Position numbers and translations under genes: made by a program | DNA from: Candidatus Iainarchaeum sp. | GTDB lineage: Archaea > Iainarchaeota > Iainarchaeia > Iainarchaeales > JAZDEL01 | DNA: 32,000 bases | Assembly: GCA_043808785.1 (NCBI GenBank) | Contig: JAZDEL010000001.1 | Span: 1-32,000 of the forward strand | Direction: 5' to 3' | Shown here: positions 6,366-29,303 of the stretch, one piece after another | How positions within the stretch are numbered: the stretch's first letter is position 1 | Layout: each line of letters begins with the position of its first letter | Notes under the pieces: model-generated | The model's database searches: none | The model's input: the letters and a program-made list of their open reading frames with translations, nothing else | What the model was told of the DNA's origin: nothing

Positions 6366-6396
6366 TAATAAAACCAATTCCTTCGCAGTTCTGTTA

Positions 6397-11540: not shown

Positions 11541-12686
11541 TCAACTCACCAACTCTCCGGAAAACGCTTTAACCAAAACTGATTTGGGCAGAAAATATAG
11601 TTGCGATTCCATTTTTTTAATTTCAGATTCTATCAATTCGCCTTTTGATTTGATTTCGGTTAATTTGCAGACAATTTTCTTTTGTTCGCTTTTGGGCGGA
11701 AATCTAATGGCATACTTTGATATTTTTTGAAAGGAGGTTCTTGGCAATTGGACCCCTGATGTATTTGCGGATGCAAAAGATACGAATCTGTCTGAAAGTA
11801 GCAAATAAAACAAATATTCACCTTCAATTTCTTCTGAAGGAATTAGCGGAATCAAATCTGTCGAAACCGCCCCAGAAAAATCAGCATAAAACGTCTTATT
11901 CAAATAAGGCCTAAGTTTCCCATAAACAACATCTCCTGGGAAAAATTTATTTTTTGTACTCTTTAAATCAGGGTTCTTAATTTGTGTTATAACTCTTCCT
12001 TTTTTTGACTCGATATGTTCGAATCCAACGTAATTAGTTATTTTTTCTTTTTTTGGGTCAATTTTATCTTTTCTGACTTTAACTAACTCACCTAACGGTT
12101 TTTCAGACCAACCCGCGGGCAAATCTCTGGCATAATGCATTAACCCAGATATTGCTTTTTGCATAATTTCCGCATGTTGCTTTTTCACCGTTTCATTTTC
12201 TTTTTTCATTTCGTCGTATTTTTCAAAGAACGCGTCAAGCTTGGCAACGATTTTTTCTTGGACGGGGAGAGAGGGAACGGGGACTTCTATCTCTAACAAT
12301 TTGGGTTTTGTGATATGTGTCATCCCTGTGCCGTGTGTCTTTTTCTTTATGTCTTCTAAGATATGCTTTATCAAATAGTAAAAATAATTTTTTTTGATAA
12401 TTTTCTCATTTGGAATAACCTTAAAGATGTGCTGGTTGAGAAGTGCATCTCCTTCGTCCCAAATAAAAATATCCAATGTAGCTGACCACGCCAAAAGCAA
12501 ATCGCCATTTTTTATCAAATGTTTTTTTTCATAATCTCCCGCATAATAATTTACTACGTCCGTAGAGTTGGTCAAATTTTGAATACGGATTATTGGTAAG
12601 CCTTTCTTGCCCCATTCACTTGGTTTGAATGCCCTGCCATTAATGTAATCTGCAACTTCCCTAAGCGTTTTAATTTCCGTTTCCAT
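11541..12686 (-). CDS. hsdS: Type I restriction-modification specificity subunit
   Basis: Two target-recognition halves separated by conserved helical spacers (LPVQEKIVAKLDAFFEKYDEMKKE... and PPKSEQKKIVCKLTEIKSKGELIESEIKKME...). Overlaps hsdM by 17 nt. Confidence 0.9.
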   Translation of the reverse strand: METEIKTLREVADYINGRAFKPSEWGKKGLPIIRIQNLTNSTDVVNYYAGDYEKKHLIKNGDLLLAWSATLDIFIWDEGDALLNQHIFKVIPNEKIIKKNYFYYLIKHILEDIKKKTHGTGMTHITKPKLLEIEVPVPSLPVQEKIVAKLDAFFEKYDEMKKENETVKKQHAEIMQKAISGLMHYARDLPAGWSEKPLGELVKVRKDKIDPKKEKITNYVGFEHIESKKGRVITQIKNPDLKSTKNKFFPGDVVYGKLRPYLNKTFYADFSGAVSTDLIPLIPSEEIEGEYLFYLLLSDRFVSFASANTSGVQLPRTSFQKISKYAIRFPPKSEQKKIVCKLTEIKSKGELIESEIKKMESQLYFLPKSVLVKAFSGELVS

Positions 12687-14076
12687 TGTTCAGCACCTGC
12701 TCAATTTCATCAAGATAGCCCGCAATCTTTTCTTGGCTGTTGCGGATGTTTTGAATTATTTCTTCTGGCGTTTCAAGCTCGCCATCGTCAAGGCTTTCAT
12801 CTTTGAGTAAGATAATGTCGAGGTTATACTTGCGCCCCTCTATTTCCTTTCTTAAAAATGATTTGAAGCGTTCCGTTTCGGTGCGCGGGCTCGTTCCGTT
12901 CGGGTTTGAGCCAAAGGCCTTTTCAAACTCGGCGAACATTTCCTGAGTTAAGGGGCGCTCCTTTTTTGTGACGCCCGCAATATTGGTTCGATTGTCATAA
13001 ATCCAGACTTTTTCTGTTTTTGCCCCCTTTGTGAAGAACAAGACATTTGCCTTGACCCCTTGGGAATAAGGCGAAAAGGTTCCGTGAGGCAGCCTGAGAA
13101 CCGTATGCAGGGTGCAATCCTCCATCAGGTTCTTTATGACCTGGCTGGCAGAGTGTTCCTCAAACAAAACATTATCGGGCAAGATAATCGCACACCTGCC
13201 GCCAGGCTTGAGAATAGTTACGCAGTGTTGCAAAAAGTTAAGCTGCTTGTTGCTGGTTTCAATCGTGAAATCCTCTCTTTCGGGTGCCTCGCCCGCGCCC
13301 TTTGTCCCGAATGGGGGGTTGGTCAAAATGCAGGAATATCTTTTATTGGGGTCAGGCTCGGCGATTGAATCGCCCAAATGAATGCCGTCTTTTATCCCGT
13401 GCAGATACAAATTCATCAGCGCAAGCCTTCTCGGGCGCTCGACCAATTCCGTGCCAGAATATGTCTTCTCCTTTAGCCTTTGCAATTCTTCCCTCGGAAT
13501 TTCCGCGCCGCCCTTTGTCTGTCCTATAAGCCATTCGTACGCCTCAACCAAAAACCCGCCAGTTCCGGCGGCTGGGTCGTGAACTGTAAGCCCCTTTTCT
13601 TTAAGCGGATTTGGTTTCATTACTTTGACAATTGACTTTATCAAAATTCTTGGCGTGAAATATTGCCCCGCCCCTTTTTTGGCTTCCGAGGCGGCTTTTT
13701 CTAGCAAGCCCTCGTAGGCCTCCGCCTTAACGTCAACCCCTAAAGCGCTCCATTCGGTTTCGTCAATAAGACTGATAAGTTTTTTCAGATTCACAGGGTT
13801 ATTAAAACGGGAAAGGGCTCCAGCAAATATGTCGCCAAGCATCCCTTTTTCTTTGCCCAGATTCCGCAATAAGTCCGAGTAGAATTCAGTTAGTTCCGTT
13901 CCACTTTTTTCTTTCAGTTTGCCCCAGCTCCACTGCTTCGGTATGTCTTGCCCTTTTTCCTCACCCATTTTAAGGAATAACAAAAACGTCAGTTGTTCTA
14001 TGTAGTCACCGTAGTCTATTCCATCGTGGCGGAGGATGTGGCAGAACCCCCAAAGTTTTTGCACTATGTTCGTCAT
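12670..14076 (-). CDS. hsdM: Type I restriction-modification N6-adenine DNA methyltransferase subunit
   Basis: HsdM N-terminal domain (LWGFCHILRHDGIDYGDYIEQLTFLLFLK), QYFTPR, motif I DPAAGTGGF, and motif IV LTNPPFG. Confidence 0.95.
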   Translation of the reverse strand: MTNIVQKLWGFCHILRHDGIDYGDYIEQLTFLLFLKMGEEKGQDIPKQWSWGKLKEKSGTELTEFYSDLLRNLGKEKGMLGDIFAGALSRFNNPVNLKKLISLIDETEWSALGVDVKAEAYEGLLEKAASEAKKGAGQYFTPRILIKSIVKVMKPNPLKEKGLTVHDPAAGTGGFLVEAYEWLIGQTKGGAEIPREELQRLKEKTYSGTELVERPRRLALMNLYLHGIKDGIHLGDSIAEPDPNKRYSCILTNPPFGTKGAGEAPEREDFTIETSNKQLNFLQHCVTILKPGGRCAIILPDNVLFEEHSASQVIKNLMEDCTLHTVLRLPHGTFSPYSQGVKANVLFFTKGAKTEKVWIYDNRTNIAGVTKKERPLTQEMFAEFEKAFGSNPNGTSPRTETERFKSFLRKEIEGRKYNLDIILLKDESLDDGELETPEEIIQNIRNSQEKIAGYLDEIEQVLNNGNGN

Positions 14077-16736
14077 CTTGCCATCGCCTCATTGAACTGC
14101 TTAAGCAAAGGCTCAAGTTTGCCGTTGAAAATTTTATCCGCCTTTTTCCATGAACCCCGCCTTGCGAAAATTGGCATCTCTTCGAAATCCTCCTTCTCAA
14201 CCGCAAGGTTCGTAACCATGTGGTTCTTGATTAATTCGAGCCACTGCACCTGTTCGGGCGTGAATTGTTTCCCTTTGGTTACTTTCTCAATCGCCTTTGC
14301 AACTCTCTCCTCGGCAGTAAGCAGGGGCTCATTTTTCGCTGCATGCTTGATTATGGAAATAATGTCCGCCAGTTCGTTGTGGTATGCCCTGCGCAGGTTA
14401 TCTTCGGTGAAACGCTGCGGCGTCTGCTCGAGTTTCTTCCTCAAGTCGGTCAGAGGTTCGGTGCCCCAGCCTTTGGGTCTTTCAAGAAGGATTTTAATTG
14501 CCTCGATTTTCTCGGGGTTTTTCTTGACGAATTGTTCAAACTCTTTCAGGTAGTCAACAGGCTTCAACTCCCTGCCATCATTCGTTCTGAAAACATATTC
14601 TGATGAAACCTCATCCTTTGTTTCATGGGCGACAAGGAAAACCTTTTGCGCCTTCGGATAATTGTGTAAAACGTCCTGAAATTCCTTGTTTTCAAGAATC
14701 TTTATCGTGCCAACAAAGTCGGTTTCAAGCCTTTCAGGCAATTTTGAGGCAAATACTCCTATATCGCCTTTCTCTATAAATTTCTCAAACAGCGGAAATG
14801 CCTCGGCGCTCATGCTTTTGGAAATTCTGTGCATCCTCTTAATCAGGCAGGTTGTGTTGTATTTTCTGTCTTGGTTATTATGGATGGCTTTGATAATCTC
14901 CTGCATTGTTCTGCCAGGCTTGTCGGGCGCCTGGCTTGTGAAGTCGGTTATTTTGTTAAAGTATTCCAGAAGCGTTCCGTCAAAACAGTCAAATGCGGTA
15001 AAGTGGGTTTTTCCTATTTCATCGCACGTTCTTGTCCCGCGCCCCATCATTTGCGTAAATAATATCCTCGATTTTACGGGGCGCATGAACACGATATTTT
15101 CAAGCGCGGGAATGTCGATGCCCGTTGAAAGCATATCGACAGTTACAACCACGCCCGGCTTCTGGCGGTTTCTGAACTCGCGGATTCTCTGCAGTGGGCG
15201 GTCAACGTTTGGGTTTCCCGTAATTTTCTGCACAAAATCGTCGCCCTTCCCAAATAGTTCCCTGCAAACCCGCACAATCTGGTCGCAGTGAGATGCGTGC
15301 GGCAAATCACCCACCGCAAAAATAAGGGTTTTGGGGAACCTGCCGAATTCCTTTTCCTGGTTTTTTATATATTTGGCAACTTCTTTCAGAATCTTCCTGT
15401 TGCTGTCGGGTGAAGTTATCTCCTTTTCGATTTTTACAGGGTCAAATTGCCGTTCGTCCTCCAGCTGGTCGAGAACCTCTCTGCCTGTTTCGGTATCAAT
15501 CATCCCGACTTTTTCGTTTTCTTTAAGGAAAATTCCCTTCATCCTCACGTTTGACGCAATCTTTACTTCATCAAAAGGAACCAAATAGCCGTCGTTGACC
15601 GCTTGCTCGTAATCATAGCGGAACACAGGCGTGCCAAAATATGCGGTGGTGTGCGCCGCGGGTGTCGCAGTCAGCCCTATCTTCACTGCATTAAAATGGT
15701 TCAGAACCTCGCGCCACTTGCTTTCTTCCGTTGCGGTGTAACCGCGGTGGCATTCATCCGCGATTACAATGTCAAAAGCGTTTATTGGAATATTAAGTTT
15801 TTCTGCATCAAATTCAGTTTCCTCGCTGGGCTCATCCTCAAAGCGCGATTCCTTCCCGAAGATGTTTATCCTCATCCTCTGGATTGTTGAAACGTAAACA
15901 AACGCAAGGCCCGGCTGCGGGTGCTCGAGGTAATGCGAAGGCAGTTCCTGTGGGTTGAACTTGAAGTCATCATCAAAGTCATCCTTGTGCATCCTCTGGC
16001 TGTAAACCTCGTATAATTTGTCGAACTTCTTTCCTGGCTCGGGCTCGAAAGTTTTGAATGCCCTGACTGCCTGTGCAGCCAGCGCCCTCCTGTCAACAAG
16101 GAAAAGAATTCTCTTGCCATAGTTCGATTTCATCAGGCGATAGATTTCGGAAATTACGGTGTATGTCTTGCCTGTTCCTGTAGCCATTGCAACCATCATG
16201 TTGCGCTTATTTTTCCTCAAAGAATCCTCGATTGCTTTTGTTGCATCAATCTGGTAGTATCTGAGCCGCGGGTGGTCGTTTGGGTGCTTTTCAAGCAATT
16301 CCAGAGCTATTTTTGGATTCTTTAAAAGGAGTTCGTTTATTGCGGAGGGCGTGTGGAACTTGGCAACCTTTTCTGAATAACTCTCGGCATTCCGTAAGTC
16401 TTGGAACCAGATTATTTCGCCGTTTGTGGAATAAATGAATGGCACTTTTAAGCCGTTGAAATCGAACGGGCTATTTTTTACTCCGCGCGCATACCGTTGA
16501 GCCTGAACAAGCACGTTTTGCGGCCCGACGGAAAGCTTTTTTGCCTCAACAACTGCAACAATCAAGCCGTCAATAAAAAGCGCATAATCCGCAGGGCCCT
16601 CTTTGGTGTCGAACTCTCCAACTGCAAAGGCGCCATTTTCGGGTATCTTGTCGGTTGGCTTCAGCACCTTCCAGCCGCTCTCTTTCAGTTTAGGGTCAAT
16701 AAGGGCATAGCGGGTTTGGCTCTCGCTGGGTTTCAT
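14073..16736 (-). CDS. hsdR: Type I restriction enzyme R subunit (nuclease-helicase)
   Basis: N-terminal PD-(D/E)xK (ADYALF...VAVVEAKK). SF2 motifs AMATGTGKT, ADECHRG, LTATP, QMMGRGTR. Long helical C-terminal domain. ATGA overlap with hsdM. Confidence 0.95.
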   Translation of the reverse strand: MKPSESQTRYALIDPKLKESGWKVLKPTDKIPENGAFAVGEFDTKEGPADYALFIDGLIVAVVEAKKLSVGPQNVLVQAQRYARGVKNSPFDFNGLKVPFIYSTNGEIIWFQDLRNAESYSEKVAKFHTPSAINELLLKNPKIALELLEKHPNDHPRLRYYQIDATKAIEDSLRKNKRNMMVAMATGTGKTYTVISEIYRLMKSNYGKRILFLVDRRALAAQAVRAFKTFEPEPGKKFDKLYEVYSQRMHKDDFDDDFKFNPQELPSHYLEHPQPGLAFVYVSTIQRMRINIFGKESRFEDEPSEETEFDAEKLNIPINAFDIVIADECHRGYTATEESKWREVLNHFNAVKIGLTATPAAHTTAYFGTPVFRYDYEQAVNDGYLVPFDEVKIASNVRMKGIFLKENEKVGMIDTETGREVLDQLEDERQFDPVKIEKEITSPDSNRKILKEVAKYIKNQEKEFGRFPKTLIFAVGDLPHASHCDQIVRVCRELFGKGDDFVQKITGNPNVDRPLQRIREFRNRQKPGVVVTVDMLSTGIDIPALENIVFMRPVKSRILFTQMMGRGTRTCDEIGKTHFTAFDCFDGTLLEYFNKITDFTSQAPDKPGRTMQEIIKAIHNNQDRKYNTTCLIKRMHRISKSMSAEAFPLFEKFIEKGDIGVFASKLPERLETDFVGTIKILENKEFQDVLHNYPKAQKVFLVAHETKDEVSSEYVFRTNDGRELKPVDYLKEFEQFVKKNPEKIEAIKILLERPKGWGTEPLTDLRKKLEQTPQRFTEDNLRRAYHNELADIISIIKHAAKNEPLLTAEERVAKAIEKVTKGKQFTPEQVQWLELIKNHMVTNLAVEKEDFEEMPIFARRGSWKKADKIFNGKLEPLLKQFNEAMAR

Positions 16737-16760
16737 GCTATTAAATAGCCTATGAATAGG

Positions 16761-19073
16761 TTAAAATCCTTGCTTTTGGCTGTTTTCAAACAATTTCCTT
16801 ACCTTCCCCCCCACCTCAGTCCTCGTCAGCACCTCCCCATACTGCGCATACTCCTTCTTCAGTTCCTTGTCCGTAACAACAAAGAACCATAGTTTGTACC
16901 TTTCATTCAGCGCCCTAACCTTCTCCTCAATCTGCGCCTTCTTCTCCGCAACTGAGCCTGTTTCAACCTCCACCGCAACCAGCACATTCAGCCCCTTGAT
17001 ATGGCCTGTCCTGTTCGGCGCAATAAAGGTGATGTCCGCCTCCTTCGTGAACTTTACTGAAACAGTGTCCGTATATTTCCTCAACTCGTCCGCAATCAAC
17101 TCAACCAAAAAAGCGTGCTTGAGCGATTCCTTCCCCGCTGGCTTCTTAATCAAATACGCCTGCCCTCTCCCTTCCCCAAGCCCGGGCTGCCTTGATTCGA
17201 CGAAACCCTGCGCCTTCAGGAACTTTACTTGGTCTTCATTCAAATCCTTGAGCGCGTAATATCTTTTCTCCAAATGATATGGGGAAAAATCCTCCTCCTT
17301 TTTCTCAGCCATTCCCTTAAGCACCTTCTCGCGCATCCGTACCTCGTCCGGGTTTGTCGTTATGAGTTCATGTTCCTTCTCCGAAGCGACAACCCTCAGA
17401 GGAATGTGGTCGTTCATGGCAAACAGCAAACCTTCCCCCTGCGTCGCGGTCAACAGAAAGCCCTGCTCCTCCTCGTTCAAATTGAACTTCTCGCTCAGCT
17501 CCTTCATAACAGCGGGCTCCTGCCTGAGCAAAAGTTTCCACGCAGTGTTTGCAAGCGTTGTAGCCCCTGCCTTGGAACTCAGCAAATCGTTAACCTCCTG
17601 CGTTATTATCACAAGCCCAAGCCCGAACTTGCGCGCGGTCTTAATCATTTCAAAAATATACCTTGAGTGCTGCCCGTAGCGCAATAAAGTCCACGCTTCA
17701 TCAATCACAAGAAGTTTCCGTTCCCTGCTGGCGTGCATCTTGTTCCTCACGAACTCCAGAATCAAAAACATCATCACTGGCTTAACCTGCGAAGGCATCT
17801 CCGCAATGTCAAAAGAAATAAAATCGTTCTCAAGGTCAAGGTTCGTCTGCCTGTTCAGGAAACTGAACGAACCTTTCGCGTAAATCCTAATCCTGTTAGC
17901 AAGCGCGTCATATGTCATGCGCTCAATCTTGCTCCCGCCCTGCTTCTCCTTCTCAATCTCGTTGTACAAATCCTCCATCACGGGCGGCTTTTTGCCCCAT
18001 GTGCTTTTGTTGTTCGAGATAATTCCCTTCTGCTCATAAACACTCTGCACGCACTTGTCAAGGATGTTCTTCTGAACCTCGGAAAGCTCCCCGCACATTA
18101 TGCGGAACAAGTCCATCAAAATCAGCATCTTCTCCCCGAAGTCCTGCCCCATCAAATCAAATGGGTTTATGATTGTCTCGCTCTCCCTGCTTATCTTCAC
18201 AACCTGCCCGTTATACGTTTTCACGACATCCGTGTACTCGCCCTGCGGGTCTATGATGTTAACCTTAACCCCCTTCAGCAAATTCCGCAGAATGAAAAGC
18301 TTGCAGTAAAAACTCTTCCCCCCTCCCGAAGTGCCAAGAATTAAACCATTGTAGTTCGTCAGCCCGTAAGGGTTGATAATTATGGGAATATTGTTCTCCT
18401 TGTTCAGCCCGACCATAATGCCTTCCTCATCCATGTTAAGAAAGGCAGAAGTGAAAGGAAAGCACGCTCCAAGCGCGTGCGAGGTAATATTGCGCGTGAC
18501 ATTCAGCCTGTCCCTCTGCAGGGGAATAACCGACTGCAAAGCCTGAAGCATCCGCAGGCACGGAGTTTTCGGGATTATCATTATTGAATTGAGTTCAGAT
18601 TCAATTTTCCTGCTCAAAAGTTCAAGCTTCTCCCGCGAAGGGGCGCGCGCGTTCACATAAAGCGCGATGTTGAAAAGCTTCTCCTCCCCTTTCTGCAATT
18701 TCTCCAGCGTGCCGAGCGTGTCCTGATGCTGAACCCTCAGCGAGGGGTTTACAATGCCCTTCATCTCCGCCGACATAATGTCCGATTCTTGCTTAACCAA
18801 TTCCTGATTTAAGCCGGTCATAATCGTGTCTATGTTCGCGGGCGTGATGAACATGCTCAAATCGAAATCCCCCTCGCTCGAAACAATAGAGCCTAACCAG
18901 CCCTCCCTAATCAGCCGCGGATATCCGACAGCCATAACCACGCGGTTGTATTGGCTGTTAACCCGTACGCAGTCGAACTCGTTCTTTATGTAGTGCGGCC
19001 TGAGCAGCGGCTGGAGGTCATGCTTCAGCGAAACGCTTTTGCCATTCCCGCGCTTAAAGAAACTTAGCAACAT
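16761..19073 (-). CDS. VirB4/TraC-type type IV secretion ATPase with a ~170-aa C-terminal PD-(D/E)xK-like extension
   Basis: LILGTSGGGKSF (Walker A, nt 18312-18335), VNIIDPQGEY, LLVIDEAW (Walker B), VIITQE. The C-terminal extension has KHAFLVELIADEL ... EADITFI ... LVAVEVETG. Confidence 0.9.
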   Translation of the reverse strand: MLLSFFKRGNGKSVSLKHDLQPLLRPHYIKNEFDCVRVNSQYNRVVMAVGYPRLIREGWLGSIVSSEGDFDLSMFITPANIDTIMTGLNQELVKQESDIMSAEMKGIVNPSLRVQHQDTLGTLEKLQKGEEKLFNIALYVNARAPSREKLELLSRKIESELNSIMIIPKTPCLRMLQALQSVIPLQRDRLNVTRNITSHALGACFPFTSAFLNMDEEGIMVGLNKENNIPIIINPYGLTNYNGLILGTSGGGKSFYCKLFILRNLLKGVKVNIIDPQGEYTDVVKTYNGQVVKISRESETIINPFDLMGQDFGEKMLILMDLFRIMCGELSEVQKNILDKCVQSVYEQKGIISNNKSTWGKKPPVMEDLYNEIEKEKQGGSKIERMTYDALANRIRIYAKGSFSFLNRQTNLDLENDFISFDIAEMPSQVKPVMMFLILEFVRNKMHASRERKLLVIDEAWTLLRYGQHSRYIFEMIKTARKFGLGLVIITQEVNDLLSSKAGATTLANTAWKLLLRQEPAVMKELSEKFNLNEEEQGFLLTATQGEGLLFAMNDHIPLRVVASEKEHELITTNPDEVRMREKVLKGMAEKKEEDFSPYHLEKRYYALKDLNEDQVKFLKAQGFVESRQPGLGEGRGQAYLIKKPAGKESLKHAFLVELIADELRKYTDTVSVKFTKEADITFIAPNRTGHIKGLNVLVAVEVETGSVAEKKAQIEEKVRALNERYKLWFFVVTDKELKKEYAQYGEVLTRTEVGGKVRKLFENSQKQGF

Positions 19074-19242
19074 CTCCCCTCCTTTTTTTCACAATTTCCG
19101 TGAATTCCTTCTCATTGTTCTTAATCTCTTTTATTTTTACCCCGAACAGAACCCTCGCCACCGCGGCAAGAATGCGGTTCATCCTCCCGAGCTGCCGAGA
19201 ACTTTCTATTATCGCATCCTCAACCTTCTTGTCCATGCGCAT
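19054..19242 (-). CDS. Possible small protein (about 60 aa) between the VirB3-like and VirB4 genes
   Basis: A shortened version (from MRMDKK...) of track ORF 19054-19353. It would fill an otherwise non-coding 146-nt gap and overlaps the VirB4 start by 20 nt. No motif recognised. Confidence 0.3.
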   Translation of the reverse strand: MRMDKKVEDAIIESSRQLGRMNRILAAVARVLFGVKIKEIKNNEKEFTEIVKKRRGDVAKFL

Positions 19243-20188
19243 TTTTTCCGCCAAATGAATCACCCCCTTTTGCCTTGCCGAATTCATCAAGAACCGTAAC
19301 AGCGGAAACGTAATCCCCGCCAGCCTCGACAAACCCCTCAAAATAAGACGCAAGCAAAGAAGTCAGTTCGCCCGTGCCGAGCCTTCTCGTGGAAAGGTTG
19401 CACGCCTTCAGTTTGCCTTGGCACAATTTGGCACGTATCGCCAATTGGTTCAGCGCAATTTCGCTATTCAGTTCATACGTTGTCTTCTGCTTTTCGCGCG
19501 AAAACAAATTCCTGAAGTTCACAAAAATATCCCGCAGAACATTCGCGGAAAAAGACGGCGAATACGGAATGATGATGTAAAAAAGGCGGTTCTTCACGGC
19601 ATTTTCCTCTATGAACCCACGCATGAACTCTTGGAATGAATTGAACTGCTCAAGCAACTGCTCCTTTTTCAGCGCCTTAACTTCGCCCTCCAAATGTGAA
19701 AGGTAGTCGTCAATCGAAAGGTTAACCGTGCGCATAACTATCTGTATCGGGAAATCAAGGGAGTTGAGGAAGTCGGAAAAAGCCCGCACAATCGCCCTCT
19801 GCTGTTCTTGCTCTAAAATCGAAAAATTAATAGGTGTGACCTGCACAACCGCAAGCATCCCGTCCTTCAGGTAAACAGTGTCATCTGATATCCTCTCGAC
19901 TTCTATGAACTTGTTTATCCGCGGGTCGAAATAGCCAGCCTCGCCGATTGAGGCTTTGAATGTCGCAAAGTTCTTCAGGTGCGTACCCAAGCCGAAAAAG
20001 GCGAACCCTGCGGCCAGCAGCGCGAAAAACACTGCGGCGGCAACCTTAATCTCAAATGGTAGCGCGGTTTTGAGGAAAACAACAGCACCCATGCCCCCAA
20101 ACAACCCAACCCAAGCAAGCTGGCTGAACGTGAGGTTGAACAGTATTTTTTCGCTGTATTTCAGGTTCTGCGGTATTTCGTATGCCAT
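19220..20188 (-). CDS. PrgI/VirB3-like membrane protein fused to a cytoplasmic VirB4-N-terminal-like domain
   Basis: The N-terminus MAYEIPQNLKYSEKILFNLTFSQLAWVGLFG plus two TM helices matches the PrgI-family signature (P..l....K..FnLT.rQl). It is followed by VYLKDGMLAVVQVTPINFSILEQEQQRAIVRAFSDFLNSLDFPIQIV, which resembles N-terminal regions of monoderm VirB4 proteins. Confidence 0.7.
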   Translation of the reverse strand: MAYEIPQNLKYSEKILFNLTFSQLAWVGLFGGMGAVVFLKTALPFEIKVAAAVFFALLAAGFAFFGLGTHLKNFATFKASIGEAGYFDPRINKFIEVERISDDTVYLKDGMLAVVQVTPINFSILEQEQQRAIVRAFSDFLNSLDFPIQIVMRTVNLSIDDYLSHLEGEVKALKKEQLLEQFNSFQEFMRGFIEENAVKNRLFYIIIPYSPSFSANVLRDIFVNFRNLFSREKQKTTYELNSEIALNQLAIRAKLCQGKLKACNLSTRRLGTGELTSLLASYFEGFVEAGGDYVSAVTVLDEFGKAKGGDSFGGKNAHGQEG

Positions 20189-20203
20189 TTTCTCAACCCC
20201 TAA

Positions 20204-21151
20204 TCACTCCCATGCCTGCGGCACGCTGCTCTCCAGCGGCACTGTCTGCTTCGATGCATGTGCAATAGCCCTGCCGTAAGTTGCGCCCAAGTAACTGTTC
20301 AGGACAGGCACATGGCTCACAATTGCCAGCGCGGCGTTTATTATTGCAAACAGCATGATGCAGATGTTGGTTATCGCTATCAAAGAAAACGCGATTGTCG
20401 GCGCCCAGCCAACCATCTCGGGGTATGCGCTGAATTCGGTCTCGAGCATCCATGCCGAAATTAAAATTATCACGTCAATTATCTGCATGAACAGCGCGGC
20501 GCCGATAAGGTTCAGCGGTATCTTGCCCCAAGATTGTAGCTGCGGTATGAGGTAAAGGAAAATTCCGATAGGGAAAAGCACTGCCCCAATCCACAGGAAT
20601 ATGTAGCGGATTACAACCGTTATGAACGCGGTAAGCACAGTGCCCCCGAACGCAAGTAGCAGGAAAAGGTTCAGCGAACTTATCGAACTGGAAGTAAAGA
20701 GCGGCTCAAGTTCGCTTGTCCAGAGCGCAGATGCAATCAGCGAGCCTATGGAAAGTACGAGAACGTAAAGAGTATAACTCGCGTTCACTGCAATAACCAT
20801 CAGCACTGCCTTCTTCAGTCCATCTTTTGCCCCAGCCCTTTGGTTCGCATCATACGAACCAATGATGAATTTCAGCCCCACAATCAGGAAGATGAGCAGG
20901 TAAAAAAGAGAAATTATGTAAATAACCATGTCGGAAATCGGCTTCATCAGCGCGGGGTCGGGGTTTGTCGTTATGAAAACCTTAAACAGCGAGAGCAACG
21001 ATGCAAGAAAATTGACGCCCTCGCCCTTCACGCCCGACATCAGCGCGTCAACAAAGTTCTTCCCCAAATCATTCAGCGGGTCCCAAAACCCCGCGCTCGC
21101 CGAGCCGCAAAGCATCAGCAGCACAGCCAGAACCAGAACCGCCCTTTTCAA
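20204..21151 (-). CDS. VirB6/TrbL-like polytopic membrane protein
   Basis: Signal peptide (MKRAVLVLAVLLMLCGSASA) followed by about 6-7 TM helices. It sits between a secreted protein and the VirB3/VirB4 genes. ATGA overlap with the upstream gene. Assignment rests on architecture and context only. Confidence 0.6.
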   Translation of the reverse strand: MKRAVLVLAVLLMLCGSASAGFWDPLNDLGKNFVDALMSGVKGEGVNFLASLLSLFKVFITTNPDPALMKPISDMVIYIISLFYLLIFLIVGLKFIIGSYDANQRAGAKDGLKKAVLMVIAVNASYTLYVLVLSIGSLIASALWTSELEPLFTSSSISSLNLFLLLAFGGTVLTAFITVVIRYIFLWIGAVLFPIGIFLYLIPQLQSWGKIPLNLIGAALFMQIIDVIILISAWMLETEFSAYPEMVGWAPTIAFSLIAITNICIMLFAIINAALAIVSHVPVLNSYLGATYGRAIAHASKQTVPLESSVPQAWE

Positions 21152-22620
21152 GCAAGCACCCCGAGCTTTTTCTTTGCGATAAAATAAAAGATGTAATAAA
21201 CGCCCGCGAAGATGCCGATGTCTTTCGCGGTTTCGGTTGTGTCGTCATAAACAACCCCGATGCGTTTCGTGTCGGAAGCGGAACCGTGCTCAAAGTCAGT
21301 ATGGAACTCCGCTGAAACAACACCCTTTGATTCTGCCGCGCTTACCTGCGCTTCCGCCTTGCCGCTGCCGTCCGTAACCAATTCCTTGAAATTCAGCCCA
21401 TATTTCAGTTCAACCTTGCCGTTAGCAAGCGGCGCCCCACTTTCATCGGAAAGATGCACAACCGCCTTCACTGTTTCATTTGCATCGTAGGAATTTTTGT
21501 CAAGAGCAAGCCACACAACAGCGTCCGGCAAATCTGACAGATTGCATTTACTTCCTAAATCAAATTCCCCAAAATCGCCTGAAATTTTTGCGGAGCAATT
21601 TCCTGCGTTCTTCTCCAGCATAAGTTCAGCGAGATACACCCCCCTGTTTTTGGAAACCGTGCCAGCAACATTCCGCTTCTCCTCCGAGAATTCCTGGACA
21701 CGCTCCACATGCAGGGCATCGTAAGGTTCAAGTCCGTAGTTCAGTTTGTAAGAAGCCTCGCTAACGGAGAGCGTGGCATCGTCAAGCGTAAAATCAAACT
21801 CATTGAAAGGTTGCGTAGCCCCAAACTCAAGCAGAACAGTGTCCAACCCGTTGCCGTCATTGTAAGCCATGCGGAAATCGTAACTGAACTGCCGAGTTTC
21901 CGCATCCAGCAAATTGGAAACTGAAAGTGCATCAGTCCTGTATTCCGTGTGTGAGAACACACAGCTCGTGTTGCAAGTCCAATCCAAGCCGGGAATCCAA
22001 CACGAAGTGTATTCCCTGTAGTGGTCTGTTTTCAGTTTCGTAGCCAAATCAACATTCGCTTTGAATTGTTTTGCCTTTGCATCGGAACTGAAAGTAGCAA
22101 CTTTCCCCGAACCAATCCGCGCGCCGTTAAGGAAAACTCCTATATCCTCCTTCCCAATAGTGTAAGAGTAAACAGTCCTGCAATCCCCCGATGCCGTGCC
22201 TGTCGGCAGTTCAATCCTGTAATTGTACGCGTTTATCACATTGCCCGAAGAATCCACGAGCCAAACAGATTCATTCGTGTCAAAAACGCTGGGGCTGATG
22301 CCGACAACCTTAACCCACGCATCTCTGATTATCCCGTTGCTCTGCGCCGAAACTCCCGCAGGCGGAGTGTTGAACTGCAGCCCCCTGTTCCATTCAAAAA
22401 CAAAGTCGTGGTTCTCGGCAAGGGTTGGCTTGCTCAGAAGCCCGAGAATGCCCTCCTTTTTCTCAGCCTGCGTGAGCGAGGTATCCTTAATAATCGCCTC
22501 GCAGTCTTTGTAGTCGATGCTCGGCAGTTTGCCGCACGAATCAGGCAGCAGGCCATCCGCCCGAACAAGTGGCACGAGCATCAGCATAAGGCATATTTCC
22601 ATGGCTAGCGTAGCTTTCAT
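21148..22620 (-). CDS. Cys-rich secreted protein with an Ig-like domain and a C-terminal TM anchor
   Basis: Signal peptide MKATLAMEICLMLMLVPLVRADG. At least 8 Cys in the ectodomain. An Ig-like segment (ETVKAVVHLSDESGAPLANGKVELKYG...TDGSGKAEAQV). C-terminal anchor IGIFAGVYYIFYFIAKKK. AGAGGTGA SD upstream. Confidence 0.75.
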   Translation of the reverse strand: MKATLAMEICLMLMLVPLVRADGLLPDSCGKLPSIDYKDCEAIIKDTSLTQAEKKEGILGLLSKPTLAENHDFVFEWNRGLQFNTPPAGVSAQSNGIIRDAWVKVVGISPSVFDTNESVWLVDSSGNVINAYNYRIELPTGTASGDCRTVYSYTIGKEDIGVFLNGARIGSGKVATFSSDAKAKQFKANVDLATKLKTDHYREYTSCWIPGLDWTCNTSCVFSHTEYRTDALSVSNLLDAETRQFSYDFRMAYNDGNGLDTVLLEFGATQPFNEFDFTLDDATLSVSEASYKLNYGLEPYDALHVERVQEFSEEKRNVAGTVSKNRGVYLAELMLEKNAGNCSAKISGDFGEFDLGSKCNLSDLPDAVVWLALDKNSYDANETVKAVVHLSDESGAPLANGKVELKYGLNFKELVTDGSGKAEAQVSAAESKGVVSAEFHTDFEHGSASDTKRIGVVYDDTTETAKDIGIFAGVYYIFYFIAKKKLGVLA

Positions 22621-22665
22621 TCGTTCACCTCTGTGGGGTGGGTGGGGGCGGAAAAGGCATTACGC

Positions 22666-23007
22666 CTATATTCCGCCCGTTCCTGATGCAGTAAGGAATT
22701 GAACCAAGGCAGGCGCAACCGCTACCAAAACAAGGCCGCCAACGCAACATGTAGCCGCGACCTTCGCGCCCTCCCTTGCCTGTATGTTCGAGCCGGCAAC
22801 CATGTATGCAACCGCGGCACCGAAGAACCCGAGTGTTGCGAATCCCCCGACTATGTACTGAACCAGCGTTATTAGGTTGTCAATTGGCTCCTTTATCTTG
22901 TCCATGTCCGCGCTCGCGGCAAAAACAGGCCCGAGCATAAGGAACACGGAAGCAAGAAAACACAAAATCCTTTTTCCGTCCAAAATGATTCCTCCTTTGA
23001 AGTTCAT
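22666..23007 (-). CDS. VirB2/TrbC-like (CedA1/TedC-like) pilin candidate
   Basis: 113 aa: signal peptide (..LMLGPVFAASA), then two hydrophobic helices joined by a short basic loop (LVQYIVGGFATLGFFGAAVAYMV - GSNIQAREGAK - VAATCCVGGLVLVAVAPALVQFL). First gene of the train. Assignment by architecture. Confidence 0.6.
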   Translation of the reverse strand: MNFKGGIILDGKRILCFLASVFLMLGPVFAASADMDKIKEPIDNLITLVQYIVGGFATLGFFGAAVAYMVAGSNIQAREGAKVAATCCVGGLVLVAVAPALVQFLTASGTGGI

Positions 23008-23025
23008 ACGGACCTTCTGCCGCGG

Positions 23026-23037
23026 CTAAATAAATGG
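23026..23037 (-). promoter_or_regulatory. TATA-like box upstream of the pilin gene (head of the long minus-strand gene train)
   Basis: The reverse complement reads ccatttatttag, centred about 23 nt upstream of ATG 23007. It is the only sizeable non-coding gap upstream of the train. Confidence 0.4.
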
Positions 23038-23158
23038 ATTCCTTATGTTACCTATGCAAGGTGGCATAAGTCAGCCTTATAAATTCCAAAAACGGGGTTT
23101 TTGTATGACGGCATCTAACCCACATTCAAAGAGAGGCCGTTGCGATGGAGGAAAAACC

Positions 23159-23269
23159 ATGAACTTATTTGCTGAACTAAAAACAAAAGCCCCAGCAGCC
23201 TATGAGTTGCTGGTGCGTGATTACTTGGAACACAAGAGCGCGGAACTGAGCAAAGGGGGCGCGCACTAA
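23159..23269 (+). CDS. Possible 36-aa micro-ORF (MNLFAELKTKAPAAYELLVRDYLEHKSAELSKGGAH)
   Basis: The ATG is preceded by GGAGG (23147-23151) at 7-nt spacing. The stop is embedded in a GC hairpin (ggcgcg-cactaa-cgcgcc). It is part of track ORF 23045-23269. Confidence 0.3.
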   Translation: MNLFAELKTKAPAAYELLVRDYLEHKSAELSKGGAH

Positions 23270-23289
23270 CGCGCCAAATTGGGGATGCC

Positions 23290-23544
23290 ATGCTATTTTT
23301 GAGCGGGAATTCGAATGCGGCAGTTGCCGCGCCCAGAACCAAGCGCTGCTTCTTCTGCGAGAGTGACAGGGGGCGGATGAGAAAAGTATCCAGCCACAAT
23401 GGGCAGGTAAGGCGCCATGTTTGCTACCGTTGTGTGGCTAAAGTCGGCTGGGCTGAGACCTGTGCAATCCTCGAGCGCGTGCCATTTTACCGCGAGCAAA
23501 CCAACTTTTTCAAGGGGCAGCTCGGCTTGGTTAAAGCATTATAG
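23290..23544 (+). CDS. Possible zinc-finger protein (84 aa)
   Basis: CFFC...(19 aa)...CYRC pairs. GGGGA lies 5 nt upstream of the ATG. No family recognised. Confidence 0.35.
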   Translation: MLFLSGNSNAAVAAPRTKRCFFCESDRGRMRKVSSHNGQVRRHVCYRCVAKVGWAETCAILERVPFYREQTNFFKGQLGLVKAL

Positions 23545-23766
23545 CTTATGCTGTTTTTTCACTCTCAGAGTAGGTACTTTTGCCACAATGACTTTACTGC
23601 CCTCTATGCGCCAGATTATTTTTTGCTTTTCCCTGACCACGCCAAGACAGAGCATTTCCTCAGCCACGCGCTTTGGGATGTTCGTGCGATAGTAGAACTT
23701 GCCGGGGTTCTTCTTTTTGTCTGGTTCGTAAACCGTAATTGTTGTTTCCGATTCAAGAGGGGACAT
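23539..23766 (-). CDS. AbrB/SpoVT-like small DNA-binding protein (75 aa)
   Basis: KFYYRTNIPKRVAEEMLCLGVV...IIWRIEGSKVIVAKV resembles the looped-hinge-helix pattern (v.IPk.v.e.lgl..g..v....dg..i.i.k). Confidence 0.5.
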   Translation of the reverse strand: MSPLESETTITVYEPDKKKNPGKFYYRTNIPKRVAEEMLCLGVVREKQKIIWRIEGSKVIVAKVPTLRVKKQHKL

Positions 23767-23886
23767 GTTGAAATTGGTAACAATTTATTTTAAAAAGACA
23801 ATGGTCATACTACTAATGAAAGGTGTAAAGTGTTAGGGACTTACAATCTGATGTAGAAGCCCTCCTCTGGCTCAGCCTTTCTTTCC

Positions 23887-23893
23887 AAAAAAA
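23887..23893 (-). terminator. Oligo-T tract terminator candidate after the 518-aa surface protein gene
   Basis: On the minus strand, GGGCGGCC TTTTTTT begins 8 nt after the stop codon (23901-23903). Archaeal termination typically uses oligo-T. Confidence 0.45.
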
Positions 23894-23900
23894 GGCCGCC

Positions 23901-25457: not shown

Positions 25458-25481
25458 GCCGAAAACAACCCCGAAAAGTAA

Positions 25482-25514
25482 TGTATAATAATGCTTCTAA
25501 TTCATATATAATTA
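25482..25514. promoter_or_regulatory. Back-to-back TATA-like boxes for divergent surface-protein genes
   Basis: tgtataataa (reverse complement ttattataca) lies about 29 nt from ATG 25457 (-). catatataatta at 25503-25514 serves the + gene. Confidence 0.4.
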
Positions 25515-25569
25515 TGCGGTAACCCGCATTTTTGCGGTTTTAGCGTGTTTTTCAGGGTTTTAGGGTTTT

Positions 25570-26049
25570 GTGCAAGGGCGTGTTTTTATGGCAAAAAAGG
25601 CAAGAAGCAATGCGCCAAAGGGCAGGGCTTTAACTGACGGGGCGGATGGCGACTTCGGCGAGGGTTTTTTCCTTGTTCTTGCGGTCCTGCTCATCGCCGC
25701 AGCAGCGGTTTTCATTTACTCCCTTTCGCTGGGCAGGGCGCCCGAAGAGTTCACGCAGGCATGGCTTGAGGGAACGCCCGAAAAGGTAATTGTAGGGCGG
25801 CCTTTTGCAGTCAACTTTGTCGTCGCAAACAGCACAGGCAGTGCAGAGGATTACAAGTATGCAATAACCGCGGAAGGAATGCCAAAGGTTCAGGGCTTCA
25901 TTCCCCTTGCACCGATGCGGCGCGAAAAAGTTTCAAACGAAATTTCCTTGGGCACGCCCGGGATGCAGAAAGTGCAGATAGATATTGCGCCGCAGAACTC
26001 CCCCGAAGCGCAGAAGCAGACACTCTGGTTCTGGGTAGAGGCTGAGTAG
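25570..26049 (+). CDS. Membrane-anchored protein with a single Ig-like ectodomain (159 aa)
   Basis: Basic N-terminus, TM helix FFLVLAVLLIAAAAVFIYSL, then a beta-rich domain ending LWFWVEAE. The start is GTG 25570 or ATG 25588. Confidence 0.6.
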   Translation: MQGRVFMAKKARSNAPKGRALTDGADGDFGEGFFLVLAVLLIAAAAVFIYSLSLGRAPEEFTQAWLEGTPEKVIVGRPFAVNFVVANSTGSAEDYKYAITAEGMPKVQGFIPLAPMRREKVSNEISLGTPGMQKVQIDIAPQNSPEAQKQTLWFWVEAE

Positions 26050-26070
26050 TGCCAACAGGGCAAAGCAATC

Positions 26071-26982: not shown

Positions 26983-27024
26983 AGTGCGCCTCCCCTGTAG
27001 CACTGCGGGCTTTTTATAAGAGCC

Positions 27025-28125: not shown

Positions 28126-28194
28126 AGTAAGCCCTGTAATAATGAGGGTTAATTCTTTATATTACTTCTTTTCCCCTGCCGCAATTGCCCAAAC

Positions 28195-28230
28195 GCAAAC
28201 AAAACCCGCGGTTCGGGCGGGTTTGTTTTG
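28195..28230. other. GC-stem hairpin followed by a T-tract, between divergent promoters
   Basis: aaacccgc (28202-28209) / ggttcgg loop / gcgggttt (28217-28224), with flanking imperfect extension (gcaaacaaa... / ...gttttg) and then tttttt. Confidence 0.4.
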
Positions 28231-28290
28231 TTTTTTCACCCGCGCTCCAGCGGGCTTAATTATTTATACTCCCCCGCCCTTATTCCTAAC

Positions 28291-29280: not shown

Positions 29281-29303
29281 ATCCGCGAGCCGCCTTAACG
29301 CGG

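What the first reader, a model, noticed from the sequence alone, without database searches (positions are those of the whole stretch)
16761..17290. VirB4 ATPase carries a C-terminal restriction-endonuclease-fold-like domain
After the ATPase core ends (about aa 575), the protein continues for a further ~195 aa. The last ~170 aa of this tail, from about aa 600, carry the domain described here. This region contains a helix with E658 (KHAFLVELIADEL), a strand with D680 (EADITFI) and a strand with E702-V-E704 (LVAVEVETG). That order and spacing fit PD-(D/E)xK nucleases such as Hjc-like enzymes, although the usual Lys is not in the canonical position. A DNA-cleaving or DNA-binding module fused to the motor of a DNA-translocating apparatus, placed 24 nt upstream of hsdR, is unusual. 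It could process incoming or outgoing DNA.
Basis: inference. Interest (0 to 1): 0.65.

Follow-up and report, generated by a model that had tools for sequence, protein, structure and literature searches.

The report
Nuclease-like domain fused to archaeal VirB4
The motor ATPase of a small conjugation-like DNA-transfer apparatus in a DPANN archaeon ends in a conserved, previously undescribed restriction-endonuclease-fold domain with an intact-looking active site, which may do the DNA cutting for which archaea have no known relaxase.

Summary
ORF 16761-19073 (-) encodes a 770-aa VirB4-like ATPase. Its last ~165 aa (605-768) form a folded domain that is conserved in 110 of 120 close homologues, so it is not a low-complexity tail.

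AlphaFold (pLDDT 91-92) gives a small beta-alpha-beta-beta lobe followed by a canonical alpha-beta-beta-beta-alpha-beta PD-(D/E)xK core. D680 sits at the start of strand 2 and E702-x-E704 on strand 3. H653, D680, E702, E704 and K718 are invariant or nearly so in 230 sequences.

Foldseek hits are weak (best E 4e-3), but nearly all of the better-scoring ones are restriction-endonuclease-fold nucleases: MspJI, MUS81/XPF, EndoMS, BamHI. No Pfam, PDB-sequence or PHROG family matches.

The D...ExE(TG) motif resembles BamHI and the MOBC (TraX) relaxases, but the profile comparison with TraX is not significant.

The domain is almost confined to DPANN archaea. It occurs fused to VirB4 in a pilin-VirB6-VirB3-VirB4 module that has no relaxase or coupling protein. 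It also occurs alone or membrane-anchored, directly downstream of tyrosine recombinase genes.

The hsdR adjacency recurs in about 1 locus in 5 but is variable cargo.

Best reading: a metal-dependent DNA endonuclease that processes DNA for these integrative transfer elements. The function is untested.

The parts
16761..19073 (-). VirB4-like T4SS ATPase gene, 770 aa. It is identical to an NCBI protein annotated 'DUF87 domain-containing protein [Candidatus Diapherotrites archaeon]'.
17451..18413 (-). ATPase core, aa 221-541 (P-loop_TraG / AAA_10 / DUF87).
17262..17348 (-). Charged linker, aa 576-604, between the ATPase and the tail domain. It is only partly conserved, and pLDDT is lower at the start of the model.
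17145..17261 (-). Small beta-alpha-beta-beta lobe, aa 605-643. It always accompanies the nuclease core, including in stand-alone proteins. It may be a truncated winged-helix-like DNA-binding or dimerisation lobe.
16776..17144 (-). PD-(D/E)xK-fold core, aa 644-766: alpha1 651-665, beta2 681-686, beta3 696-704, alpha2 709-725, beta4 728-733, then alpha-beta-alpha.
17115..17117 (-). H653 codon, invariant (230/230), in helix alpha1.
17034..17036 (-). D680 codon, invariant, at the start of strand beta2. The preceding residue is P in most homologues and A here.
16962..16970 (-). E702-V-E704 codons on strand beta3. E702 is conserved in 229/230 and E704 in 226/230. They are followed by conserved T705-G706, giving an ExETG motif as in BamHI and OkrAI.
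16920..16922 (-). K718 codon on helix alpha2 (226/230). It is a candidate for the relocated catalytic Lys.
19220..20188 (-). PrgI/VirB3-like membrane protein.
20204..21151 (-). Polytopic membrane protein, homologous to the TrbL_3/VirB6-like genes of related loci.
21148..22620 (-). 490-aa protein with an N-terminal signal-like hydrophobic segment and weak Ig-like matches, conserved in many of the related modules.
22666..23007 (-). TrbC/VirB2-type T4SS pilin.
11541..16736 (-). Type I restriction-modification operon: hsdR 14073-16736, hsdM 12670-14076, hsdS 11541-12686. It starts 24 nt downstream of virB4. I judge it to be variable cargo, not part of the mechanism.

Best explanation
The last ~165 residues of this DPANN VirB4-like ATPase are a distinct, previously uncatalogued family of the PD-(D/E)xK (restriction-endonuclease-fold) superfamily. 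The family carries a D...ExE active-site variant plus an invariant His and a Lys on the next helix.

I propose that it is a divalent-metal-dependent DNA endonuclease, tethered by a ~30-aa linker to the cytoplasmic face of a minimal T4SS-like channel (pilin, VirB6-like, VirB3-like, VirB4).

There it would bind and nick or cut the DNA that the apparatus moves. That would supply the DNA-processing step done in bacteria by a separate relaxase and coupling protein, neither of which is seen in these modules.

The same domain encoded alone or with a membrane anchor, right after a tyrosine recombinase gene, would be the equivalent of the integrase-plus-relaxase core of bacterial mobilisable islands.

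Shown: the domain is real and conserved; its fold class; the conserved motif residues; its gene contexts. Inferred: catalysis, the substrate, whether it nicks or cuts both strands, and the direction of DNA transfer.
For: Domain and motif:
- It is conserved in 110/120 VirB4 homologues.
- 453 cluster representatives were found by exhaustive phmmer.
- H653, D680, E702, E704 and K718 are invariant or >97% conserved in both fused and unfused forms.

Fold:
- AF2 gives pLDDT 92.3/90.9 with a canonical alpha-beta-beta-beta-alpha-beta core, and the acidic residues lie on strands 2 and 3.
- Foldseek PDB hits are MspJI, MUS81/XPF/Hef, EndoMS, BamHI/OkrAI, VRR-NUC and Can2, with probability up to 0.97.
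- BFVD hits are named nuclease, REase, Mrr, RecB or VRR-NUC.
- Sub-threshold Pfam hits include PD-(D/E)xK families, which give the best E-values: CoiA_nuc, AHJR-like, ERCC4, DUF4143.
- The ExETG motif is identical in form to BamHI E111-F-E113-T-G.

Gene context:
- The conserved module is pilin-(Ig-like)-VirB6-VirB3-VirB4tail, with no relaxase or T4CP seen.
- An integrase lies upstream in L001 and L002.
- Unfused copies lie directly downstream of tyrosine recombinases in 7 independent loci.

Precedent:
- MOBC relaxases (TraX, MobC) are PD-(D/E)xK enzymes with a D-E-E, BamHI-like site and an N-terminal winged helix (PMC6736028, PMC12857230).
- TraX D152/E170/E172/K188 align in register with D680/E702/E704/K718.
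- No relaxase homologues are known in archaeal conjugative elements, and the source of transferred ssDNA is an open question (PMC9905601).
Against: - No Foldseek hit reaches E <= 1e-3 against the PDB, and TM-scores stay below 0.5.
- Profile comparisons with BamHI (P 0.014) and with a TraX profile (P 0.002-0.01, probability 4-15%) are not significant.
- The canonical Lys is absent from strand 3. No conserved Tyr occupies the position of TraX Y181.
- A closely related VirB4 clade lacks the tail, and in the one locus examined no separate copy is encoded nearby. The domain is therefore not indispensable to the apparatus.
- Nothing shows that these modules move DNA rather than proteins or other cargo, nor in which direction.
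- No candidate nick site was identified.
Confidence: 0.5

Rival explanations
1. Import-side nuclease. The apparatus takes up DNA, as the Ced/Ted systems do. The tethered nuclease would cut or degrade incoming DNA at the channel exit, either degrading one strand or feeding nucleotide salvage in these biosynthetically poor symbionts. This would be analogous to EndA/NucA, or to the early proposal for CoiA in bacterial competence.
For: - The module resembles the minimal Ced/Ted import systems (VirB2, VirB6 and VirB4 homologues only; PMC9905601).
- The location is membrane-proximal in both the VirB4-fused form and the TM-anchored forms.
- Weak CoiA_nuc matches were found.
- The module is widespread across DPANN lineages.
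Against: - The tight pairing of unfused copies with tyrosine recombinases, and the integrases next to some modules, point to mobile-element biology rather than host nutrition.
- The CoiA matches are far below threshold.
- The known Ced/Ted ATPases are not reported to carry such a domain.
Confidence: 0.2
2. Recombination accessory of integrative elements. The domain would work with the tyrosine recombinase, for example as a junction- or structure-specific resolvase or a directionality or processing factor for excision and integration. Its fusion to VirB4 would merely couple excision products to the transfer machine.
For: - Integrase-then-domain gene pairs occur in 7 loci, several with overlapping or <130-nt spacing.
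- Structural neighbours include structure-specific nucleases (MUS81/XPF/Hef, EndoMS).
- Weak AHJR-like hits were found.
Against: - Tyrosine recombinases need no nuclease partner.
- Many VirB4-fused loci show no integrase within the fetched 8 kb, and this window has none.
- An N-terminal membrane anchor on many unfused copies is odd for a recombination factor.
Confidence: 0.15
3. Non-catalytic module. A degenerate nuclease fold would be retained as a DNA-binding, oligomerisation or docking domain, like ERCC1 or EME1, or functionally like the FtsK gamma domain that reads DNA sequence for the motor.
For: - The canonical Lys is missing from strand 3.
- Inactive PD-(D/E)xK paralogues (ERCC1) are among the structural hits.
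- A tail-less sister clade exists.
Against: Near-absolute conservation of an acidic triad plus His and Lys, over sequences only ~30-45% identical overall, is the signature of a metal-binding active site rather than a scaffold.
Confidence: 0.08
4. Defence or exclusion nuclease. The domain would be a restriction-like guard that destroys foreign DNA arriving through the channel, functionally allied with the adjacent type I R-M system.
For: - Type I R-M genes lie within 5 kb downstream in 6 of ~31 informative related loci, plus this window.
- Other defence genes (GmrSD, AbiEii, Vsr, Fic) are also found downstream.
Against: - The downstream neighbourhood is variable and includes housekeeping genes (TFIIB, UbiA). 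L001-L003 have no R-M.
- The conserved partners are the T4SS genes and integrases, not R-M.
- hsdR brings its own PD-(D/E)xK nuclease domain (HSDR_N).
Confidence: 0.07

Closest known systems
MOBC relaxases (TraX of pAD1/pTEF1, MobC of CloDF13; Pfam PF13814 Replic_Relax)
   Same: - Both are PD-(D/E)xK-fold enzymes of conjugative or mobilisable elements with a D...ExE ('DEE', BamHI-like) metal site, preceded by a winged-helix-type lobe (PMC6736028, PMC12857230).
- The motifs are collinear: TraX D152, E170-x-E172, K188 and H102/103 correspond to D680, E702-x-E704, K718 and H653.
- Unfused copies pair with an integrase, as relaxases do in mobilisable islands.
   Different: - There is no significant sequence or profile match: no PF13814 hit, and hhalign probability is 4-15%.
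- There is no conserved Tyr at the Y181 position.
- The N-terminal lobe is only beta-alpha-beta-beta.
- The domain is fused to VirB4 or to a membrane anchor instead of being a soluble protein working with a T4CP.
- The hosts are archaeal (DPANN).
BamHI / OkrAI type II restriction endonucleases
   Same: Both have the same active-site variant, with Glu in place of Lys, and the same local motif: BamHI PID94...ME111FE113TGN against PD680...VE702VE704TGS. BamHI chains recur among the Foldseek hits (probability 0.5-0.77, rmsd 4.3-5.7 A over 89-117 columns).
   Different: Similarity outside the motif is not significant (hhalign P 0.014). There is no sign of a cognate methyltransferase partner for the domain. 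The context is a transfer apparatus, not an R-M pair.
Ced and Ted DNA-import systems of Crenarchaeota
   Same: Both are minimal archaeal T4SS derivatives built from VirB2-like pilin, a VirB6-like channel and a VirB4-like ATPase, without relaxase or T4CP (PMC9905601).
   Different: - No nuclease domain is mentioned for CedB/TedB in the papers read.
- The DPANN pilin, VirB6-like, PrgI and VirB4 proteins match the bacterial-type Pfam models directly.
- Integrases and cargo genes flank the DPANN modules.
Motor-nuclease pairings in the FtsK-HerA superfamily (HerA-NurA; FtsK gamma domain)
   Same: A hexameric DNA-pumping ATPase is coupled to a nuclease (HerA-NurA; PMC9905601 discussion) or carries a C-terminal DNA-recognition domain (FtsK gamma; own knowledge).
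   Different: NurA has an RNase H fold and is a separate polypeptide. The FtsK gamma domain is non-catalytic. I found no report of a PD-(D/E)xK domain fused in cis to a VirB4.
CoiA competence nuclease (PF06054)
   Same: It is a PD-(D/E)xK enzyme acting on transferred DNA, with a non-Lys variant (ExQ) (PMC1189080; bioRxiv 10.1101/2024.02.06.579203). It is one of the families recurring among the sub-threshold Pfam hits, with the best E-value.
   Different: The hits are below threshold (best E 1e-3; gathering score not reached). CoiA is restricted to Bacillota and is not attached to a secretion ATPase.

Membership tests
PD-(D/E)xK (restriction-endonuclease-like) superfamily | alpha-beta-beta-beta-alpha-beta core with a four-stranded mixed sheet flanked by helices | tested here: met
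   AF2 models with pLDDT 92.3 and 90.9 give helix 651-665, strands 681-686, 696-704 and 728-733, and helix 709-725.
PD-(D/E)xK (restriction-endonuclease-like) superfamily | Conserved Asp at the start of strand 2 and (D/E)-x-K on strand 3 | tested here: inconclusive
   (P)D680 and E702 are invariant and lie on the expected strands. The third position is E704, not Lys, as in BamHI. An invariant K718 lies on the next helix. Its spatial proximity to the acidic residues could not be checked because no coordinates were available.
PD-(D/E)xK (restriction-endonuclease-like) superfamily | Significant structural similarity to solved members | tested here: inconclusive
   Nearly all of the better-scoring Foldseek hits are superfamily members (probability up to 0.97). 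However, the best E-value is 3.6e-3 and TM-scores are 0.35-0.49.
PD-(D/E)xK (restriction-endonuclease-like) superfamily | Metal-dependent phosphodiesterase activity | not testable with these tools
   This needs biochemistry.
MOBC relaxases (PF13814 Replic_Relax) | Match to the family profile | tested here: not met
   TraX of pTEF1 hits PF13814 (E 2e-6), but none of the 9 domain members scanned individually does, and PF13814 is not among the 25 families shown for the 71-member scan. hhalign against a 7-sequence TraX profile gives P 0.002-0.01 and probability 4-15%.
MOBC relaxases (PF13814 Replic_Relax) | D-E-E metal-binding motif in a BamHI-like arrangement | tested here: met
   D680/E702/E704 align with TraX D152/E170/E172. 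The motif is described in PMC6736028.
MOBC relaxases (PF13814 Replic_Relax) | Essential Tyr (TraX Y181) shortly after the ExE motif | tested here: not met
   Positions 707-717 are variable and contain no conserved Tyr. The nearest conserved Tyr is Y742 (223/230, otherwise Phe).
MOBC relaxases (PF13814 Replic_Relax) | N-terminal winged helix-turn-helix; encoded with a T4CP and an oriT | tested here: inconclusive
   Only a beta-alpha-beta-beta lobe is present. No T4CP was seen in the modules. No search for an oriT was made.
VirB4/TraC/CagE T4SS ATPases (the host protein) | P-loop_TraG/AAA_10/DUF87 ATPase domain, encoded with VirB3-, VirB6- and VirB2-like genes | tested here: met
Archaeal Holliday junction resolvase (Hjc / AHJR-like) | Profile match and a canonical E...D...ExK motif | tested here: not met
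   AHJR-like hits occur in only 5 of 71 members (best E 0.0048, below threshold). Lys is absent from strand 3. No Hjc entry is among the 50 best Foldseek PDB hits in either search.
CoiA nuclease (PF06054) | Profile match above the gathering score | tested here: not met
   The best E-value is ~1e-3, in a few members only.

The most novel reading that the evidence does not exclude
DPANN archaea carry relaxase-free integrative conjugative elements. In these, a restriction-endonuclease-fold nickase welded to the VirB4 motor replaces both the relaxase and the coupling protein. The stand-alone or membrane-anchored 'integrase + nuclease' gene pairs would then be the archaeal counterpart of mobilisable islands that hitch a ride on the apparatus. 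This would give the first concrete candidate for the missing DNA-processing enzyme of archaeal conjugation-like transfer.
Probability: 0.3. Interest if true: 0.8.

Novelty: new variant of a known kind. Interest (0 to 1): 0.62.

Why it matters
Archaeal conjugative plasmids and the Ced/Ted systems have no recognisable relaxase. How transferable DNA is generated and handed to the channel is an acknowledged open question (PMC9905601).

A conserved, apparently active nuclease domain built into the VirB4 motor of a widespread DPANN T4SS-like module, and paired with integrases when free-standing, is a directly testable candidate for that step. It is a small soluble domain with five obvious point mutants.

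It also defines an uncatalogued PD-(D/E)xK family with 453 cluster representatives, nearly confined to DPANN archaea. It adds a new domain architecture to VirB4 ATPases. It also bears on how these ultra-small symbionts exchange or acquire DNA.

Tried and rejected
Searches that found nothing useful:
- The word-indexed protein search with the tail alone found nothing, not even the protein itself. The exhaustive phmmer search was needed.
- PDB sequence and profile searches gave only spurious keratin and ubiquitin matches.
- A profile search of the word-indexed database found only 11 unannotated short proteins.
- IMG/VR viral contigs have no true copy. There are no PHROG hits, no Rfam hits and no tRNA in the window.

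Tool and source limits:
I replaced it with a hand-made degenerate DNA pattern, followed by HMM confirmation.
- The CloDF13 record was unusable as a MobC source, so I used TraX of pTEF1 instead.
- Iyer et al. 2004 and Francia et al. 2013 are not held. What I say about them comes from citing papers or from my own knowledge.

Ideas tested and dropped:
- Functional coupling to hsdR. The downstream flank varies between loci.
- A 'Rosetta-stone' separate domain gene next to tail-less VirB4. None was found in L119.
- A gene-fusion artefact in this MAG. The fusion is present in more than 100 independent homologues.
- An integrase within this window. None was found.
- Hjc-likeness specifically. It is not supported.
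Full report
**The observation**

ORF 16761-19073 on the minus strand encodes a 770-aa protein. It is identical to an NCBI entry annotated 'DUF87 domain-containing protein [Candidatus Diapherotrites archaeon]' from a 214-kb contig. The window therefore comes from a DPANN archaeon.

Pfam places the VirB4/TraG-type ATPase core at aa 221-541 (P-loop_TraG 1.5e-26, AAA_10, DUF87). The remaining residues up to 770 have no Pfam match and no PDB sequence match.

The gap to the hsdR start codon is exactly 24 nt.

**Is the tail real?**

Of the 120 best full-length homologues (45-68% identical to the query over the aligned region), 110 carry the same tail at 28-46% identity. Of the ten without it:
- five end at or just after the ATPase core and look cut short, consistent with their short contigs;
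- one is a partial, intein-bearing protein;
- four form a genuinely tail-less clade.

An exhaustive phmmer search of 1.84 billion cluster representatives with the tail alone found 453 proteins at E <= 1e-3. An HMM of aa 600-763 matches the query at 605-768.

Conservation is highly uneven, as expected for an enzyme:

| Residue | VirB4 tails (of 108) |
|---|---|
| H653 | 108 |
| D680 | 108 |
| E702 | 108 |
| E704 | 105 (otherwise Q) |
| K718 | 107 |
| T705, G706, W729, F731, Y742, R751 | >90% |
| E649 | 99 (otherwise Q) |

The same residues are conserved in copies of the domain that are not fused to VirB4.

**Fold**

AlphaFold2 with a 71-sequence alignment gives high-confidence models for aa 596-770 (pLDDT 92.3, pTM 0.87) and for the cropped core aa 644-770 (pLDDT 90.9).

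After a small beta-alpha-beta-beta lobe (605-643) comes the following core:
- helix 651-665, carrying H653;
- a short strand;
- strand 681-686, with D680 at its start;
- strand 696-704, carrying E702 and E704;
- helix 709-725, carrying K718;
- strand 728-733;
- then alpha-beta-alpha.

This is the canonical PD-(D/E)xK core, with the acidic residues on the canonical strands.

Foldseek against the PDB finds nothing at E <= 1e-3. Nearly all of the better-scoring hits are restriction-endonuclease-fold nucleases; the few others (AF2093, an RFC clamp-loader subunit, Tdp2) score poorly. The nuclease hits are:
- MspJI (E 3.6e-3);
- MUS81-EME1/2 (probability 0.96-0.97, TM 0.45-0.49);
- EndoMS/NucS, XPF, Hef;
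- BamHI and OkrAI;
- Ecl18kI, VRR-NUC, Can2.

The viral structure library gives hits named nuclease, restriction endonuclease, Mrr, RecB-family or VRR-NUC. Sub-threshold Pfam hits scattered over family members include PD-(D/E)xK families (CoiA_nuc, AHJR-like, ERCC4, DUF4143), which give the best E-values, among unrelated weak hits.

I conclude that the fold assignment is sound. This is a new family of the superfamily, not a member of any catalogued one.

**Active-site variant**

Strand 3 carries E-x-E-T-G instead of (D/E)-x-K. BamHI has exactly this form: its PDB sequence reads ...GPID94VY...GME111FE113TGN..., and OkrAI reads ...ALEWETGN....

hhalign aligns the two motifs, but without significance (P 0.014).

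Migration of the catalytic Lys to another element is documented in other PD-(D/E)xK families (PMC1189080). The invariant K718 on the following helix is the obvious candidate here. I could not measure distances because model coordinates are not exposed.

**Distribution and architectures**

I scanned one genome per GTDB species with a degenerate DNA pattern for AIEVETG-N11-K and confirmed candidates with the HMM. This gave 57 true loci.

All but two of the 57 true loci carry archaeal labels, most of them DPANN lineages: Woese-, Pace-, Nano- and Micrarchaeota and 'ainarchaeum'; the rest are labelled simply 'archaeon' or 'uncultured Methanosarcinales archaeon'. The two exceptions are a 'bacterium' and a Cloacimonadota label. 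The ~40 bacterial matches were chance hits that failed the HMM.

About 40 of the true loci are VirB4 fusions of 750-1050 aa. The longer ones also have the PrgI/TraC-like protein fused at the N-terminus.

The others are short proteins:
- stand-alone forms of ~160-200 aa;
- 270-430-aa proteins, several of which have N-terminal transmembrane segments and a charged spacer.

The small N-terminal lobe always accompanies the core.

**Context of the fused form**

In this window and in related loci the gene order is:
1. TrbC/VirB2-type pilin;
2. usually a secreted Ig-like protein;
3. TrbL/VirB6-like channel protein;
4. PrgI/VirB3-like protein;
5. VirB4 with the tail.

This order is seen. No relaxase or VirD4-type coupling protein was seen in any of these modules. 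A tyrosine recombinase lies 1-2.5 kb upstream of the pilin gene in L001 and L002. None lies within this window.

The region downstream of virB4 is variable. Type I R-M genes occur within 5 kb in 6 of ~31 informative loci, plus this window. Among 78 downstream genes, Pfam finds:
- ResIII x5, N6_Mtase x4, Methylase_S x3;
- GmrSD, AbiEii, Vsr, Fic and YhcG;
- housekeeping genes such as TFIIB x4 and UbiA.

L001-L003 have no R-M there.

**Context of the unfused form**

In L004, L021, L026, L040, L071, L087 and L104/L105, the domain gene lies immediately downstream of, and co-directional with, a tyrosine recombinase gene. Four of these recombinases are 60-68% identical orthologues, and two of the four pass Pfam Phage_integrase. 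That is 7 of roughly 11 informative loci.

**Mechanistic reading**

The combination of evidence is:
- an acidic triad plus His and Lys under near-absolute conservation;
- a restriction-endonuclease fold;
- tethering to the cytoplasmic motor of a DNA-transfer-type channel, or to the membrane;
- association with integrases;
- absence of relaxase and T4CP.

I think this is best explained by a metal-dependent DNA endonuclease that processes the DNA handled by these integrative elements.

There is a direct bacterial precedent. MOBC relaxases (TraX of pAD1, MobC of CloDF13) are PD-(D/E)xK enzymes with a 'DEE', BamHI-like metal site and an N-terminal winged helix. They appear not to form a covalent DNA intermediate (PMC6736028, PMC12857230).

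I tested this lead. I located TraX on pTEF1, where it matches PF13814 at E 2e-6 and carries D152, E170-x-E172, Y181 and K188. I built a seven-sequence profile from plasmid homologues.

hhalign aligns the two families collinearly:

| DPANN domain | TraX |
|---|---|
| H653 | H102/103 |
| D680 | D152 |
| E702, E704 | E170, E172 |
| K718 | K188 |
| WFFVVT | LIYVTPS |

The score is 26.5, against a maximum of 19.2 in 30 column-shuffled controls. However, P is only 0.002-0.01 and the probability 4-15%. There is no conserved Tyr at the Y181 position, and no domain member hits PF13814.

So the domain may work like a MOBC relaxase, but I do not file it as a member of that family.

**Caveats and rivals**

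A closely related VirB4 clade lacks the tail, and L119 encodes no separate copy nearby. The domain is therefore an accessory, not a core part of the machine.

Nothing here shows the direction of transfer. The module is as minimal as the Ced/Ted DNA importers (PMC9905601). An import-side role, cutting or degrading incoming DNA as EndA or NucA do in competent bacteria, is the main rival.

Other rivals:
- A role as a recombination accessory of the integrase.
- A non-catalytic DNA-binding or docking role, which is disfavoured by the conservation pattern.
- A defence or exclusion role linked to R-M, which is disfavoured by the variability of that neighbourhood.

**Novelty**

Full-text searches on DPANN, VirB4, Ced/Ted, FtsK-HerA and MOBC terms found no description of a nuclease domain on VirB4 or of this family.

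The literature states that archaeal conjugative systems have no recognisable relaxase and that the origin of the transferred ssDNA is unresolved (PMC9905601).

I rate this a new variant of a known kind. It combines a new PD-(D/E)xK family with a new VirB4 architecture. It offers a plausible but untested link to an open question.

Noticed in passing
window 11541-16736 (-): There is a complete type I R-M operon, hsdR-hsdM-hsdS, with overlapping stop and start codons (hsdR/hsdM share 14073-14076; hsdM/hsdS overlap at 12670-12686). The hsdS gene and the two unknown ORFs beyond it (9488-11005, 505 aa; 8869-9486, 205 aa) lie in a low-GC block (0.375-0.39, against 0.45-0.50 for hsdR/hsdM and the T4SS genes). 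This suggests a mosaic or recently exchanged specificity region.
   Followed up: partly
window 24001-32000 versus 13001-23000: GC content steps from ~0.47-0.50 over the T4SS/R-M block to 0.53-0.55 from 24 kb onward. This may mark the edge of an island. No integrase, tRNA or Rfam match was found in the window to define the boundaries.
   Followed up: partly
window 5290-6801 (+): A run of small genes encodes an HD-domain protein (5290-5880), a protein with a weak FokI recognition-domain match (5892-6365) and an HNH endonuclease (6397-6801). This may be another defence or mobile cassette.
   Followed up: no
window 23008-23900: A ~900-nt stretch upstream of the pilin gene has no ORF of 100 aa or more and no Rfam hit. 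It is a candidate regulatory or origin-of-transfer region for the module.
   Followed up: partly
L040:3458-4681(-), L080:4264-5484(-) and three other neighbours: Reverse transcriptase genes (RVT_1, ~407 aa) lie convergently just downstream of unfused copies of the domain. Five RT genes occur among 76 neighbours of unfused copies.
   Followed up: partly
P0087 (homologue, 1251 aa): This VirB4 homologue is interrupted by a LAGLIDADG/intein-type insertion (PF14528, PF14890).
   Followed up: no
L007 (P0175) and L016:3045-5247: An integrase N-terminal SAM-like segment is joined or adjacent to the C-terminal half of a tailed VirB4. This could be an integration event into virB4 or a rearrangement.
   Followed up: no
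L009, L015, L025, L033 and others (VirB4 of ~1000 aa): In many DPANN loci the PrgI/TraC-like (VirB3-like) protein is fused to the N-terminus of VirB4. One polypeptide then carries VirB3, VirB4 and the nuclease-like tail.
   Followed up: partly
L026:4968-7998 (-): Two tandem MORC/HATPase_c_3-type ATPase genes lie next to an integrase-plus-domain pair. They are a possible defence cargo.
   Followed up: no
L119 and P0089-P0093: A sister clade of VirB4 (about 60% identical over the ATPase) ends ~30 aa after the core with a short basic tail and lacks the nuclease-like domain.
   Followed up: yes
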